Positions 43,975 through 45,250 of a DNA stretch of 64,000 nt are shown in pieces. Below the pieces are notes generated by a model. The model was not told where the DNA came from. It saw nothing but the letters and a program-made list of their open reading frames with translations, and did not search any database. The stretch spans positions 503,831-567,830 of the forward strand of contig CAWFNY010000001.1 of assembly GCA_963817435.1 (NCBI GenBank). Direction: 5' to 3'. The stretch is from an uncultured Gemmatimonadales bacterium (lineage in GTDB: Bacteria; Gemmatimonadota; Gemmatimonadetes; Gemmatimonadales; GWC2-71-9). Every line of letters starts with the position of its first letter. The first letter of the stretch is position 1. Both the position numbers and the translations under genes were made by a program.

Positions 43975-44310
43975 TCACCCTTGTTGATCGTTTATACGAA
44001 GACCGTCATGATCGTCGTCATCATAACAGTTGTTGTCTTTATACTCCGCCATGCTGTTGCCGAAGCCTTCCTGGTCATTCCCTAATTGGTTGAGATGGTC
44101 CTGGTCAGCATCACCTCGCTTCCACGCATCCATGTACTGCTGCACACGCCGCTGCATGCTATTGACTTTCCGCTTGATTTCCTTGCGTATGTCGGAACAC
44201 GGCTTCAGCCCAAACGGATCGTCAAACGCGATCGGGTTGTTGCCGGCGTAGGCGTAGAGGTTCACCCCGCAGGCCAGCCCGATCGGATCCTGGGTGAGCA
44301 GGATCCACCA
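43975..44310 (-). CDS. orphan Rhs core-end plus C-terminal toxin cassette (no full-length rhs upstream)
   Basis: Translation [35 protein letters not shown] contains the Rhs core terminus and an exact PxxxxDPxGL motif. A 76-aa unrecognised tail follows. The frame opens just after a TGA at 44311-44313, and the only internal start is GTG 44265. Confidence 0.7.
   Translation of the reverse strand, partial: [111 protein letters not shown]
44285..44306. repeat. candidate recombinase core site, copy 1: GGATCCTG-GGTGAG-CAGGATCC
   Basis: Identical 22-mer to 45195-45216. Perfect 8-bp inverted arms around a 6-bp spacer. Encodes ILLTQDP on the - strand. Confidence 0.6.
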
Positions 44311-44347
44311 TCAGCCCTGTCTGTCCTCCCGCCCTCCCTGCGGGTGC

Positions 44348-44376
44348 TTGCTCGTGACGTGTATGTACACTATAGT
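44348..44376 (+). promoter_or_regulatory. vapBC promoter with overlapping palindromic operator candidates
   Basis: TTGCTC, 17 nt, TATAGT. Inverted repeats GTGTA-TG-TACAC and GTGCG-CATGTA-CGCAC flank and overlap the -10 box. AAGGAG Shine-Dalgarno sequence lies 5 nt before the ATG. Confidence 0.5.
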
Positions 44377-44406
44377 GCGCATGTACGCACACTTCAAGGA
44401 GCCCCT

Positions 44407-44625
44407 ATGGCCAAGACGCGCACCCCGTCCAAAGGGGCACGCAAGGTGCCCAAGACCTATCGCCTGGCTCCCGACAAGGTGGCCGCCGCCCAGCGCGTCC
44501 TCGGCGCGGCGACGGCGACCGAGACGATCGAGCAGGCGCTCGACCTCGTGGTGTTCCGCCAGGCCCTCATCGACGGCACGCGCAGCCTCTTCGGGCTCAC
44601 GATCGACCCGCCGGAGCATGGCTAG
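44407..44625 (+). CDS. vapB: putative VapB-type antitoxin (72 aa)
   Basis: Small ORF with a strong Shine-Dalgarno sequence, overlapping the PIN gene by 8 nt. YRLAPDKVAAAQRVLGAATATETIEQALDLVV resembles DNA-binding antitoxin N-termini. Confidence 0.55.
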   Translation: MAKTRTPSKGARKVPKTYRLAPDKVAAAQRVLGAATATETIEQALDLVVFRQALIDGTRSLFGLTIDPPEHG

Positions 44626-45091
44626 GACGGACGCCGGCGCACGGAAGTACGCGCTGGATACCAACCTGTTCATCCGGGCCTTCCGCGACCCCGTCGCCCA
44701 GGAGGCTTTGGTCCGGTTCCACGCGGCGTTCGCCCCCTTCGAGTACCTGAGCGTCGTCGTGGCACAGGAGCTCCGGGCTGGGACCCGGCGTCCCGCCGAC
44801 CGCGCCCGATTAGAACGGGAGCTGCTGGAGGTGTTCGAGCGCACCGGCCGGGTGGTGACCCCCTCGCGCCAGGCGTGGCACGACTCCGGGGATGTGCTCG
44901 CCGCGCTGGCGGCCAAGGACGGACTGGAGCCGGGTCGGGTCTCCAAGGCGTTCGGGAACGATGTCCTGCTGGGGCTGTCGTGCCGCGAATCCGGGCTCAC
45001 CCTCGTGACGGACAACGTTGCCGACTTTGAGAGGATCAGTCGGATCGTACCGGTGCCCTACGTCGCCCCCTGGCCCGGAGCCTTAGCCTGA
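44618..45091 (+). CDS. vapC: PIN-domain toxin VapC
   Basis: YALDTNLFI (Asp1), VAQELRAG (Glu), NDVLLG (Asp), LVTDNVADFERI (Asp). The four acidic PIN residues occur in the canonical order. Confidence 0.85.
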   Translation: MARTDAGARKYALDTNLFIRAFRDPVAQEALVRFHAAFAPFEYLSVVVAQELRAGTRRPADRARLERELLEVFERTGRVVTPSRQAWHDSGDVLAALAAKDGLEPGRVSKAFGNDVLLGLSCRESGLTLVTDNVADFERISRIVPVPYVAPWPGALA

Positions 45092-45250
45092 CCGCCCACG
45101 GGAGGCCCCATGCGCCTCGGTCTCCGGCGGGAGACGTGGAACCCGCCACGGGCGAGGGGCACTCGGGACGTTGAGCCGTGGTAGGCAGCCGATGGGATCC
45201 TGGGTGAGCAGGATCCGGTCGGTCGCTCCCTCGCGCGCAGCCGCTACAAC
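45083..45250 (-). pseudogene. degenerate Rhs core-end remnant directly downstream of the recombinase
   Basis: Translation ...[19 protein letters not shown]... matches the core end at 44310 only over ~35 nt, with indels, then diverges. No PxxxxDPxGL. Confidence 0.5.
45195..45216. repeat. candidate recombinase core site, copy 2: GGATCCTG-GGTGAG-CAGGATCC
   Basis: Identical to 44285-44306 and in direct orientation. Lies 27 nt after the recombinase stop. Arms extend to 12/14 (CCGATGGGATCCTG / CAGGATCCGGTCGG). Confidence 0.6.

What the first reader, a model, noticed from the sequence alone, without database searches (positions are those of the whole stretch)
44285..45216. Two identical 22-bp recombinase-type core sites inside Rhs core-end coding sequence, next to a tyrosine recombinase
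**Seen in the sequence**
- GGATCCTGGGTGAGCAGGATCC occurs twice (44285-44306 and 45195-45216), in direct orientation and 910 bp apart.
- Each copy is a perfect 8-bp inverted repeat (GGATCCTG / CAGGATCC) around an asymmetric 6-bp spacer (GGTGAG).
- The right copy sits 27 nt after the stop codon of a XerC/D-type recombinase. Its arms extend to 12/14 matches.
- On the - strand both copies encode I-L-L-T-Q-D-P. This is the conserved stretch of an Rhs core just upstream of PxxxxDPxGL.
- Similarity between the two copies decays within ~13 nt outside the 22-mer, with indels.

**Established knowledge**
- Two inverted binding arms around a 6-8-bp crossover spacer is the architecture of tyrosine-recombinase core sites such as dif, loxP and FRT.
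- Orphan rhs toxin tips are known to be exchanged by homologous recombination.

**Inference**
- The recombinase may act on a site written into the conserved rhs 3' core. That would make toxin-tip/immunity cassettes, and the vapBC module between the sites, excisable and swappable.
- I am not aware that such a site-specific version of Rhs tip exchange has been described.
Basis: partly seen in the sequence, partly recalled or inferred. Interest (0 to 1): 0.85.

Follow-up and report, generated by a model that had tools for sequence, protein, structure and literature searches.

The report
Recombinase site for swapping Rhs toxin tips
The two identical 22-bp palindromes are real, and across many related soil bacteria they recur right after the same Xer-like recombinase and at the start of every spare Rhs toxin tip, which points to an undescribed site-specific system for shuffling toxin and immunity cassettes; the copy in this window looks decayed.

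Summary
**Observation:** confirmed. GGATCCTGGGTGAGCAGGATCC occurs at 44285-44306 and 45195-45216. The second copy lies 27 nt after the stop of a Xer-like tyrosine recombinase.

**Comparative evidence**
- In 15+ Gemmatimonadota loci, recombinases of 48-80% mutual identity are followed 10-36 nt later by the same site. About 40 orphan Rhs tips begin with it or a close variant.
- Wobble positions inside the site are nearly invariant (0.2 bit, against 1.25 bit in the next 27 codons).
- The left arm GGATCCTG ("IL") never occurs in full-length Rhs proteins, which read GRFLTQDP. It is a non-coding mirror image of the right arm.
- Full-length rhs genes that co-occur with the recombinase (L097, L100) carry the spacer and right arm. 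rhs genes with no recombinase nearby use other synonymous codons.
- In L100 the main-gene site and the recombinase-proximal site are inverted around [rhs body + recombinase], a shufflon-like layout.

**Best reading:** site-specific tip/immunity/TA cassette exchange, with crossover in the 6-bp spacer. The closest known systems are Bacteroidales rAID-1 and shufflons.

**This window:** a degenerate instance.
- The recombinase is broken by a 7-bp duplication.
- There is no full-length rhs.
- The first tip has been replaced by vapBC.

**Limit:** no rearrangement was observed directly.

The parts
45195..45216 (-). Recombinase-proximal core site (copy 2). On the - strand it reads GGATCCTG|CTCACC|CAGGATCC. 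It lies 27 nt after the recombinase stop, and only about 9 nt of Rhs core homology follow it.
   Evidence: The same position (10-36 nt after the stop) holds in L003, L005, L008, L009, L094, L095 and L100.
44285..44306 (-). Core site (copy 1) at the start of an orphan Rhs tip cassette. The left arm is non-coding, with a stop codon two codons upstream. The spacer and right arm encode LTQDP.
43975..44284 (-). Orphan Rhs core end ([27 protein letters not shown]) followed by a roughly 70-aa C-terminal toxin tip of unknown family.
   Evidence: TIGR03696 scores 33.1 bits over profile positions 46-76. No Pfam match for the tip.
45244..46201 (-). Xer-like tyrosine recombinase, a pseudogene through frameshift.
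   Evidence: Pfam PF00589, E = 2e-36. It is 70-78% identical to the intact homologues in L005, L009 and L093. The closest NCBIfam model for intact homologues is the NF002331 XerC subfamily, below its cut-off.
46078..46091 (.). 7-bp tandem duplication (GCCCACC x2 on the + strand) that frameshifts the recombinase.
   Evidence: deleting one unit restores a 316-aa ORF colinear with homologues (alignment A1).
44408..44625 (+). vapB-like antitoxin, antisense to the cassette array, between the two sites.
   Evidence: It is 58% identical to the L092 neighbour of a VapC homologue.
44618..45091 (+). vapC PIN-domain toxin, between the two sites.
   Evidence: Pfam PF01850, E = 7.5e-7. It is 88% aa identical to the L092 VapC, which also lies next to a tip site.
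43162..43803 (-). 213-aa ORF downstream of the orphan tip. It is a candidate cognate immunity gene, assigned by position only.
   Evidence: No Pfam or NCBIfam match. It lies in the low-GC cassette region.
42637..42900 (+). C-terminal fragment of an Imm11 polymorphic-toxin immunity protein, on the strand opposite the array.
   Evidence: Pfam PF07791, E = 2.8e-11, profile positions 106-192 of 194.
42550..44350 (.). Low-GC cassette region (51-60% against 68-72% in the flanks), consistent with horizontally acquired cassettes.

Best explanation
**What it is.** The 22-mer is the core recombination site of a dedicated Xer-like tyrosine recombinase. This recombinase, in a clade of Gemmatimonadota, manages arrays of Rhs toxin-tip / immunity / toxin-antitoxin cassettes.

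**Anatomy of the site (Rhs coding strand).**
- Left arm GGATCCTG, 6-bp asymmetric spacer CTCACC (CTGACC in one sub-lineage), right arm CAGGATCC.
- The spacer and right arm are the codons for L-T-Q-D-P of the Rhs core end.
- In full-length rhs genes the left arm is the coding sequence G-R-F.
- In orphan cassettes the left arm is non-coding and has become the mirror image of the right arm.

**Proposed mechanism (inferred).**
- Strand exchange in the spacer keeps each left arm with its upstream DNA. It transfers everything from LTQDP onward: the autoproteolytic core end, the toxin tip, immunity genes and any TA module.
- Between inverted sites this inverts a segment. In L100 that segment is [rhs body + recombinase], which would put a different tip on the Rhs shell, as in a shufflon.
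- Between direct sites it excises a circular cassette that can reintegrate, as in an integron.
- The array co-oriented with the recombinase probably also serves as an expressed archive of immunity genes, as in rAID-1.

**In this window** the system is a decayed remnant.
- The recombinase is frameshifted.
- No rhs body is present.
- The first cassette holds vapBC in place of a tip.
- One orphan tip with a putative immunity gene remains.

**Shown versus inferred.** Shown: site anatomy, conservation, linkage and boundaries. Inferred: catalysis by this recombinase, crossover within the spacer, and the inversion and excision outcomes.
For: 1. **Linkage.** In 8 loci the site lies 10-36 nt after the recombinase stop, co-oriented with it, and the intervening sequence is not conserved. 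These loci span recombinases of 48-80% mutual identity and at least 5 chromosomal contexts: dnaB, T2SSE, aldehyde dehydrogenase, inositol-phosphate synthase and rhs. Three of them (L094, L095, L100) were retrieved through the recombinase protein, not through the site. Two other recombinase-retrieved loci are exceptions. In L093 the nearest site lies upstream of the recombinase start, and in L103/L104 there is no proximal site (listed under evidence against).
2. **Specificity.** None of 80 metagenome loci with more distant recombinases (33-52% identity) has an Rhs tip or a comparable repeated site.
3. **Nucleotide-level constraint.** Over 34 distinct tips, third-codon-position entropy is 0.26 bit inside the 22-mer against 1.25 bit in the next 27 codons. 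For the 15 tips not retrieved via the site the values are 0.21 and 1.26 bit.
4. **Left arm.** Among the 150 best matches to the core-end profile in 1.84 billion representative proteins, 39 have at least 150 aa upstream of the motif. Of these, 36 read GRFLTQDP and none reads [12 protein letters not shown] occurs only in orphan-like short proteins. Orphans also show a graded series of left arms from GGAGGTTC to GGATCCTG.
5. **Sharp boundary.** Sequence upstream of the site is unrelated in about 30 orphans. Homology of orphans to the full-length rhs in L097 begins at the first base of the spacer.
6. **Acceptor genes.** The full-length rhs in L097 comes from the same ENA assembly as array L093 and carries GGAGGTTC|CTCACC|CAGGATCC. 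The L100 main rhs carries GGCGCTTC|CTGACC|CAGGATCC, with the same variant spacer as its 4 neighbouring sites.
7. **Control.** Three full-length rhs genes with no recombinase within 10 kb encode LTQDP as CTGACCCAGGACCC (two genes) or CTGACGCAAGATCC.
8. **Layouts that allow inversion.** L100 has its main-gene site and proximal site inverted around [rhs body + recombinase]. Orientations alternate in L093 (-,+,-,+,-), L001 (+,-,+) and L094.
9. **Catalytic residues.** Intact homologues keep the tyrosine-recombinase catalytic residues (R, K, HxxR, H, Y) in alignment A1 (the assignment rests on established family knowledge).
Against: - No recombination product (inversion isomer, deletion or circle junction) was observed. 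The related pairs L090/L091 and L103/L104 show no site-associated rearrangement.
- The arms are only 8 bp long, shorter than the 11-13 bp of dif, loxP and FRT (from my own knowledge).
- The main-gene left arm matches the palindromic arm at only 4 of 8 positions.
- Within a locus, the 60-75 nt after the site are nearly identical between copies. RecA-mediated recombination or gene conversion could therefore also move tips, and could explain why all sites in one locus share a spacer.
- Several arrays (L001, L006, L007, L090-L092) have no recombinase within the DNA held.
- In L093 the array lies upstream of the recombinase. In L103/L104 the left arms are degenerate and there is no proximal site.
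- Only 2 'with recombinase' and 3 'without' full-length genes could be compared.
- In the window itself the recombinase is a pseudogene.
Confidence: 0.7

Rival explanations
1. These are ordinary orphan Rhs tips, made and exchanged by homologous recombination (C-terminal displacement). The recombinase is a passenger or island marker, and the 22-mer is residual core homology that happens to be palindromic.
For: - Rhs orphan exchange by homologous recombination is established (Koskiniemi 2014 and Jackson 2009, as cited in PMC5361080).
- Within a locus, 60-75 nt after the site are nearly identical, which is enough for RecA.
- Several arrays have no recombinase in the DNA held.
Against: - This model predicts variable lengths of retained core upstream of orphans. 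Instead, about 30 orphans in 10+ genomes are cut at the same nucleotide.
- It does not explain a non-Rhs left arm that mirrors the right arm and never occurs in full-length proteins.
- It does not explain invariant wobble bases in 14 nt next to freely varying ones.
- It does not explain the 10-36 nt spacing from the recombinase stop across recombinases of 48-80% identity and different chromosomal contexts.
- rhs genes with no recombinase nearby use other codons for LTQDP.
Confidence: 0.14
2. The sites are attL/attR-type junctions of an integrative island. Its integrase targets the LTQDP region of rhs genes and brings a replacement tip, much as phages integrate into tRNA gene 3' ends. Under this reading the arrays are scars of successive integrations, not a resident shuffling system.
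For: - The integrase sits at one end next to an 'IL'-type site, as expected for an attR-proximal integrase.
- The unit occupies different chromosomal positions in different genomes.
- The cassettes have lower GC than the flanks.
Against: - No element body lies upstream of the recombinase. In every locus a housekeeping gene or the rhs 5' end starts within 55-210 nt.
- No matching second junction inside an rhs gene lies on the same strand upstream.
- In L100 the rhs gene is divergent from the recombinase, which fits inversion and not integration.
- The site is absent from viral contigs.
Confidence: 0.1
3. The palindrome works as a nucleic-acid hairpin at the head of each orphan cassette, as a transcription or translation barrier or an RNA processing signal, and not as a recombination site.
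For: The 22-mer folds into an 8-bp stem with a 6-nt loop (DNA parameters: -6.8 to -7.6 kcal/mol, z about -3.6). The full-length-gene version does not fold this way.
Against: - No T-run follows, so it is not an intrinsic terminator.
- A hairpin role does not explain the sharp homology boundary, the strict linkage to a recombinase, or conservation of the loop sequence (the spacer) including its local CTGACC variant.
Confidence: 0.04

Closest known systems
Recombinase-associated acquired interbacterial defence system rAID-1 of Bacteroidales (Ross et al. 2019; bioRxiv 10.1101/471110; PMC12247911)
   Same: - A XerD/XerC-like tyrosine recombinase sits at the head of a co-oriented array of orphan polymorphic-toxin immunity genes.
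- A conserved repeated motif lies after the recombinase stop and between cassettes.
- Cassette GC is skewed relative to the host.
- The layout is integron-like, and how the arrays are built is still unknown.
   Different: - This system is in Gemmatimonadota, whereas close rAID-1 recombinase homologues are reported only in Bacteroidales.
- Here the repeat is defined: a 22-bp 8-6-8 palindrome whose spacer and right arm are the LTQDP codons of the Rhs core end.
- The cassettes keep the toxin tips, not only the immunity genes.
- A full-length rhs gene with a compatible half-site can sit next to the recombinase (L100).
- Sequence relatedness of the two recombinases could not be tested.
Shufflons and other gene-altering multiple-inversion systems: R64 Rci/sfx acting on pilV, and Type I R-M hsdS inversion by Xer-like PsrA/CreX (PMC7096588, PMC9881135). 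Details of Rci/sfx are from my own knowledge.
   Same: - A tyrosine recombinase encoded in the locus swaps alternative 3' gene segments onto a constant 5' body through short sites.
- Site orientations alternate (L093, L001).
- The expressed gene conserves only the spacer and one arm, as reported for sfx.
- There is a gene / pseudogene-fragment size asymmetry.
   Different: - The target is an Rhs toxin, a family absent from the systematic survey of gene-altering inversions (0 mentions).
- Many sites are in direct orientation (L006, L007, the window), which implies excision or deletion as well as inversion.
- The cassettes also carry immunity and TA genes.
- No inversion isomers have been observed yet.
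Integrons (IntI, attI, attC cassettes)
   Same: - A tyrosine recombinase lies next to a primary site, followed by an array of promoterless cassettes that each begin or end at a recombination site.
- TA cassettes are interspersed in the array, as in chromosomal integrons.
   Different: - The recombinase is not an integron integrase: TIGR02249 scores 93 bits against a cut-off of 265.
- The recombinase is co-oriented with the array, not divergent from it.
- The sites are simple 22-bp palindromes in double-stranded coding-derived DNA, not 57-141-bp folded attC sites.
Rhs / CdiA orphan toxin-immunity modules exchanged by homologous recombination (Jackson 2009 and Koskiniemi 2014, cited in PMC5361080)
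   Same: - Arrays of 3' tip + immunity modules retain a piece of the conserved core end.
- The result is tip replacement on a constant shell.
   Different: - Here the retained core piece has a fixed 5' end, capped by a palindromic arm and linked to a recombinase.
[quoted passage not shown]
Xer/dif and Xer-exploiting modules (IMEX, pdif modules; from my own knowledge)
   Same: - The recombinase is Xer-family by sequence.
- The site has two inverted arms around a 6-bp central region.
   Different: - The scores are below the XerC and XerD equivalog cut-offs.
- There is a single dedicated recombinase gene next to its sites.
- The arms are 8 bp, not 11 bp.
- The site is multi-copy and unrelated in sequence to dif.

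Membership tests
RHS repeat-associated core domain (TIGR03696): orphan C-terminal tip | Match to TIGR03696 at or above its cut-off, ending in the PxxxxDPxGL cleavage motif | tested here: met
   The window tip scores 33.1 bits (cut-off 32.5), but only over profile positions 46-76 of 76. [12 protein letters not shown] is present.
RHS repeat-associated core domain (TIGR03696): orphan C-terminal tip | Fused in frame to a YD-repeat shell (a functional Rhs toxin) | tested here: not met
   A stop codon lies two codons upstream of the site, and no Rhs body is found in the window by motif scan or tblastn. It is therefore an orphan.
Tyrosine recombinase, Xer-like | Phage_integrase catalytic domain with the R-K-H-R-H-Y residues | tested here: met
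   PF00589 at 2e-36. The residues are conserved in alignment A1.
Tyrosine recombinase, Xer-like | Bona fide XerC or XerD (equivalog cut-offs) | tested here: not met
   Intact homologues score 210 bits on TIGR02224 (cut-off 335), 198 bits on TIGR02225 (cut-off 330) and 326-336 bits on NF002331 (cut-off 371).
Tyrosine recombinase, Xer-like | Intact reading frame in this window | tested here: not met
   A 7-bp tandem duplication at 46078-46091 shifts the frame. radA is also frameshifted, so an assembly error is not excluded.
rAID-1 (recombinase-associated acquired interbacterial defence) | Tyrosine recombinase at the 5' end with 2 or more co-oriented downstream short genes | tested here: met
   Seen in the window, L005, L008, L009, L094, L095 and L100.
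rAID-1 (recombinase-associated acquired interbacterial defence) | Conserved repeated motif after the recombinase stop and between cassettes | tested here: met
   The 22-mer plus roughly 80 nt of core end stands at the head of each cassette.
rAID-1 (recombinase-associated acquired interbacterial defence) | Skewed GC content of the cassettes relative to the host and the recombinase | tested here: met
   51-60% against 68-72%. The published absolute criterion (41% or lower) is specific to Bacteroidales.
rAID-1 (recombinase-associated acquired interbacterial defence) | Recombinase at least 44% identical to B. fragilis BF9343_RS08045; Bacteroidales host | not testable with these tools
   The reference sequence could not be obtained. 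The host here is Gemmatimonadota, and the paper reports close homologues only in Bacteroidales.
rAID-1 (recombinase-associated acquired interbacterial defence) | Array genes are orphan immunity genes that protect against toxins | tested here: inconclusive
   There is an Imm11 fragment in the window and AHH + Imm11 and YxiG in relatives. Most ORFs have no family match, and protection was not tested.
Integron | IntI-type integrase | tested here: not met
   TIGR02249 scores 93-96 bits (cut-off 265) and NF011946 scores 62-65 bits (cut-off 435).
Integron | attC sites (imperfect 57-141-bp palindromes) at cassette ends | tested here: not met
   The sites are 22-bp 8-6-8 palindromes, and nothing upstream of them is conserved.
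Shufflon / gene-altering multiple inversion system | Alternative 3' gene segments flanked by inverted recombinase sites, next to a constant 5' gene body | tested here: met
   In L100 the main rhs site (-) and the proximal site (+) are inverted around [rhs body + recombinase]. Orientations alternate in L093 and L001. This is not met in the window itself, where the two sites are direct and there is no gene body.
Shufflon / gene-altering multiple inversion system | Coexisting inversion isomers in a population or between close strains | tested here: inconclusive
   No isomers appear among L090/L091 or L103/L104. The Logan contigs L101/L102 merely break at the sites. No read data were available.
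Rhs orphan modules formed by homologous or illegitimate C-terminal displacement | Orphans retain core sequence of variable length upstream of the tip | tested here: not met
   About 30 orphans start at the same nucleotide. A few keep 8-16 further nt of 'YDPxxG'.

The most novel reading that the evidence does not exclude
A clade of Gemmatimonadota carries a dedicated 'toxin-tip shufflon/integron'. A Xer-like recombinase recognises a 22-bp site whose spacer and right arm are written into the LTQDP codons of the Rhs core end. Through inversion and cassette excision/integration it both re-arms a full-length Rhs toxin with alternative tips and builds a co-transcribed archive of immunity and TA genes. 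This would be the first site-specific, RecA-independent mechanism for polymorphic-toxin diversification. It would also give a mechanistic template for how rAID-type immunity arrays are assembled.
Probability: 0.5. Interest if true: 0.9.

Novelty: new variant of a known kind. Interest (0 to 1): 0.8.

Why it matters
**The open question.** How arrays of orphan toxin tips and immunity genes are built has been explained only by homologous or illegitimate recombination.
- Kirchberger et al. state explicitly that there is no evidence for an integrase-driven route (PMC5361080).
- How the widespread rAID arrays arise is described as unknown (PMC12247911).

**What this system offers.**
- It has a defined 22-bp site, a defined recombinase and a compatible half-site inside the full-length toxin gene.
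- The hypothesis can therefore be tested directly, by EMSA, by in vivo inversion and excision assays, and by mining long reads.

**If confirmed.**
- It adds Rhs toxins to the gene families diversified by programmed recombination.
- It shows how a recombination site can be embedded in a conserved coding motif, with the non-coding arm free to evolve into its mirror image.
- It gives a sequence signature (GGATCYTGCTSACCCAGGATCC next to a Xer-like gene) for finding such arrays in metagenomes.

Tried and rejected
- **Exact-protein look-ups of the window's VapC and DnaB** found nothing, so the source genome and strain variants were not available.
- **Metagenome scan with the recombinase alignment** returned only relatives of 33-52% identity. 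None had Rhs tips or a repeated proximal site.
- **A 43-aa consensus core query** to the word-indexed protein search gave only 5 short orphans. The exhaustive profile search was needed to find full-length Rhs proteins.
- **vapBC homology between the window and L092** (82% nt) ends 55-120 nt from the sites, so it gives no breakpoint information.
- **Comparisons of L090 with L091 and of L103 with L104** showed no site-associated rearrangement.
- **The arm extension to 12/14 at copy 2** is not conserved elsewhere.
- **The Verrucomicrobiota exact match (L002)** lies in an unrelated ORF and was treated as a chance match.
- **Integron membership** was rejected on integrase scores.
- **Phage origin** was rejected: 0 matches in viral contigs.
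- **Intrinsic terminator** was rejected: no T-run follows.
- **Literature searches** for an Rhs shufflon, Rhs inversion or Rhs site-specific exchange found nothing relevant.
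Full report
**1. The observation**

The 22-mer GGATCCTGGGTGAGCAGGATCC is present exactly twice, at 44285-44306 and 45195-45216, in direct orientation and 910 bp apart.
- No further copy exists within three mismatches, and none of 100 dinucleotide-preserving shuffles gave a match.
- Each copy is a perfect 8-bp inverted repeat around the asymmetric spacer GGTGAG.
- The repeat extends to 28 nt with one mismatch.

The window is 68% GC.

The layout, read along the - strand, is:
- dnaB (on the + strand, 46375-47805).
- A tyrosine recombinase (46201 to 45244; Pfam PF00589, E = 2e-36).
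- 27 nt of spacer, then copy 2.
- vapB and vapC on the opposite strand (44408-45091; PIN domain).
- Copy 1, then an Rhs core end, [33 protein letters not shown], with a C-terminal tip running to 43975.
- A 213-aa ORF, then an Imm11 fragment on the + strand, then a uracil-DNA-glycosylase-type gene.

The tip matches TIGR03696 (Rhs_assc_core) only over profile positions 46-76. A stop codon lies two codons upstream of copy 1, and there is no Rhs body anywhere in the window. Both copies are therefore orphan fragments. The cassette region has 51-60% GC against 68-72% in the flanks.

**2. The site elsewhere**

An exact scan of 185,579 species-representative genomes found 12 further copies in five Gemmatimonadota MAGs, plus one chance-like hit in an unrelated Verrucomicrobiota ORF.

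In every Gemmatimonadota copy:
- The sequence upstream of GGATCC is unrelated and usually closed by stop codons.
- Downstream comes [28 protein letters not shown] and then a different tip.
- The cassettes share only this block of about 100 nt.

Homologues of the window's recombinase lie directly upstream of the site in L003, L005, L008 and L009.

**3. An unbiased test of the linkage**

I searched with the recombinase protein and fetched the genomic context of five homologues.

| Locus | Identity to the L005 recombinase (query) | Site position |
|---|---|---|
| L095 | 62% | exact 22-mer, 16 nt after the stop |
| L094 | 60% | one-mismatch version, 36 nt after the stop |
| L100 | 57% | 19 nt after the stop |
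| L093 | 74% | five sites in alternating orientation, ending 183 nt upstream of the recombinase start |
| L103/L104 | 54% | degenerate sites on both sides |

- Across eight loci the stop-to-site gap is 10-36 nt, and the gap sequence is not conserved.
- The recombinases are only 48-80% identical to one another.
- The neighbouring chromosomal genes differ between loci.
- None of 80 metagenome loci with more distant relatives (33-52% identity) has an Rhs tip or a comparable repeated proximal site.

**4. Constraint at the DNA level**

Among 34 distinct tips, third-codon-position entropy is 0.26 bit inside the 22-mer and 1.25 bit in the next 27 codons. In the 15 tips from loci retrieved by protein, the values are 0.21 and 1.26 bit.
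- CTC ACC CAG GAT is essentially invariant. This includes GAT in a genome that otherwise mixes AAC/AAT and TAC/TAT freely a few codons later.
- The left arm varies more. GGATCCTG occurs in 21 of 34 tips.
- The remaining left arms form a graded series back to the Rhs coding sequence: GGATCTTG, GGATCTTC, GGACCTTG, GGACCTTC, GGAGGTTC.

**5. The left arm is not Rhs**

A profile of the core end was searched against 1.84 billion representative proteins.
- Of the 150 best hits, 39 carry the motif at least 150 residues into a protein. Of these, 36 read ...RNRWYDPxTGRFLTQDP... and none reads ILLTQDP.
- ILLTQ appears only in short, orphan-like proteins.

Only the spacer and right arm (LTQDP) therefore belong to the Rhs gene. 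The 'IL' codons are a non-coding arm that mirrors the right arm. This is the pattern expected if a homodimeric or cooperative DNA-binding protein selects for symmetry wherever coding constraints are absent.

**6. Full-length acceptor genes**

- L097 carries a 1322-aa Rhs from the same ENA assembly (ERZ25039554) as array L093. It has GGAGGTTC|CTCACC|CAGGATCC.
- BLAST homology between this gene and most of the orphan tips starts at its position 13430, which is the first base of the spacer.
- L100 is the most complete locus. A 2021-aa rhs on the - strand has GGCGCTTC|CTGACC|CAGGATCC. Three orphan cassettes follow on the same strand, two with GGATCCTG and one with GGATCTTG. A divergent recombinase begins 210 nt from the rhs start, and a fifth site plus tip lies 19 nt after its stop.
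- All five L100 sites share the variant spacer CTGACC.
- As a control, three full-length rhs genes with no recombinase within 10 kb (L098 x2, L099) encode LTQDP as CTGACCCAGGACCC or CTGACGCAAGATCC. These wobble bases are therefore free to vary when the system is absent.

**7. Mechanism**

The best-supported reading is that the Xer-like recombinase exchanges strands within the 6-bp spacer.
- Left arms stay with their upstream DNA, which explains GRF in main genes and IL in orphans.
- Everything from LTQDP onward moves.

In L100 the main-gene site and the proximal site are inverted. Recombination there would flip [rhs body + recombinase] and fuse the shell to the tip on the other side. The alternating orientations in L093, L001 and L094 fit a multiple-inversion system.

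Direct arrays (L006 with six sites, L007, the window) would give excision or deletion and possibly reintegration.

Co-orientation of the array with the recombinase suggests read-through expression of the immunity genes, as reported for rAID-1.

TA modules recur in the arrays, including VapBC, HigBA-like, Phd-YoeB, HicB and DUF5615. This parallels the TA cassettes of chromosomal integrons, a parallel I draw from my own knowledge.

None of these recombination steps was observed. All are inferred from anatomy and conservation.

**8. Rival explanations**

- *Homologous recombination alone* is plausible for moving tips, because 60-75 nt after the site are nearly identical within a locus. It does not explain the fixed boundary, the mirror-image left arm, the invariant wobble bases or the spacing from the recombinase.
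- *An integrative island targeting rhs genes* would explain an integrase next to an IL-type junction. However, no element body lies upstream of the recombinase in any locus, and the L100 geometry is inverted.
- *A hairpin function* is physically possible. It would not conserve the loop sequence or tie the site to a recombinase.

**9. The window's own copy**

- The recombinase is broken by a 7-bp tandem duplication (GCCCACC x2, 46078-46091). Removing one unit restores a 316-aa ORF colinear with homologues.
- radA also carries a +1 frameshift, so assembly errors cannot be excluded. A 7-bp duplication is, however, not a typical homopolymer error.
- After copy 2 only about 9 nt of Rhs homology remain before unrelated sequence and the antisense vapBC.
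- A VapC 88% identical to the window's lies next to a tip site in L092, in the other relative orientation. The nucleotide homology ends 55-120 nt from the sites, so it is uninformative about breakpoints.
- The window therefore holds a degenerate, probably frozen array.

**10. Comparison with known systems and novelty**

- The recombinase is Xer-family but scores below the XerC and XerD cut-offs, and it is not an integron integrase.
- The closest described system is rAID-1 of Bacteroidales. It has a XerD-like recombinase, co-oriented orphan immunity genes, repetitive intergenic motifs 'reminiscent of integrons' and skewed GC, and how its arrays are built is unknown.
- Mechanistically the closest systems are shufflons and hsdS inversion systems (PMC7096588, PMC9881135). 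The systematic survey of gene-altering inversions does not mention Rhs.
- Searches for site-specific Rhs tip exchange found nothing. Kirchberger et al. state that no integrase-driven route for effector-immunity insertion is known.
- I therefore rate this as a new variant of a known kind, with high interest and moderate-to-good confidence pending read-level or biochemical evidence.

Noticed in passing
window 46078-46091: The recombinase frameshift is caused by a 7-bp tandem duplication (GCCCACC GCCCACC on the + strand). Removing one unit restores a full-length ORF. It could be a true inactivation, a reversible slippage switch or an assembly artefact.
   Followed up: yes
window 48540-48600 (radA, gene from 48000): radA carries a +1 frameshift at about CTCGAAGGGCGCGCCC. 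The N-terminal part and the 'APGNVGQVRE...' part are in different frames. This suggests either indel errors in the assembly or a second pseudogene.
   Followed up: partly
L098 1-16291 and 17241-23330; L099 950-8306; L100 13218-15613; L005/L008/L009; L092; L103: In relatives, full-length rhs genes and the recombinase/tip arrays sit next to a T2SS-like cluster (T2SSE, F, G, K, M, secretin) with a sigma54 activator. This may be a dedicated export route for these Rhs toxins. None of these genes is in the window.
   Followed up: partly
window 44408-45091; L001 4905-5255; L007 1070-1714 and 5469-6039; L090/L091; L093 1022-1702; L094 13819-14344; L095 15299-15896; L099 9360-10021: Toxin-antitoxin modules (VapBC/PIN, HigBA-like Gp49+HTH, Phd-YoeB, HicB, DUF433/DUF5615-like) recur between tip cassettes in most arrays. 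This is reminiscent of the stabilising TA cassettes of chromosomal integrons.
   Followed up: partly
window 42637-42900 (+): A C-terminal fragment of an Imm11 immunity protein lies on the strand opposite the tip array. L100 carries a complete AHH toxin + Imm11 orphan cassette.
   Followed up: partly
window 42128-42197: A G-rich tandem repeat (14-nt period, GGGAAGAGGGAAGA-like, 4-5 units) lies immediately after the uracil-DNA-glycosylase-type gene, at the edge of the island.
   Followed up: no
window 44358-44387: An overlapping palindrome (GTATGTACACTATAGTGCGCATGTAC) lies just upstream of vapB and is partly conserved in L092. It is probably the VapB operator.
   Followed up: no
L101 1-6742 and L102 1-3845: Two independent short-read contigs with the L100 recombinase end 6 nt after the proximal site. 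One of them begins 16 nt beyond the main-gene site, so it spans exactly the putative invertible segment. This fits a repeat-induced assembly break and does not by itself prove inversion.
   Followed up: partly
L093 930-980 against L097 13407-13566: One orphan with a perfect palindromic left arm still has about 16 nt resembling the Rhs 'YDPQT' codons upstream, with a 1-nt deletion. Its tip is also homologous to the main-gene tip. This suggests that left arms evolve in situ from Rhs sequence toward the palindrome.
   Followed up: partly
L002 2619-2640: The exact 22-mer also occurs once in a Verrucomicrobiota MAG, inside an unrelated ORF with no Rhs motif. It was treated as a chance match.
   Followed up: yes
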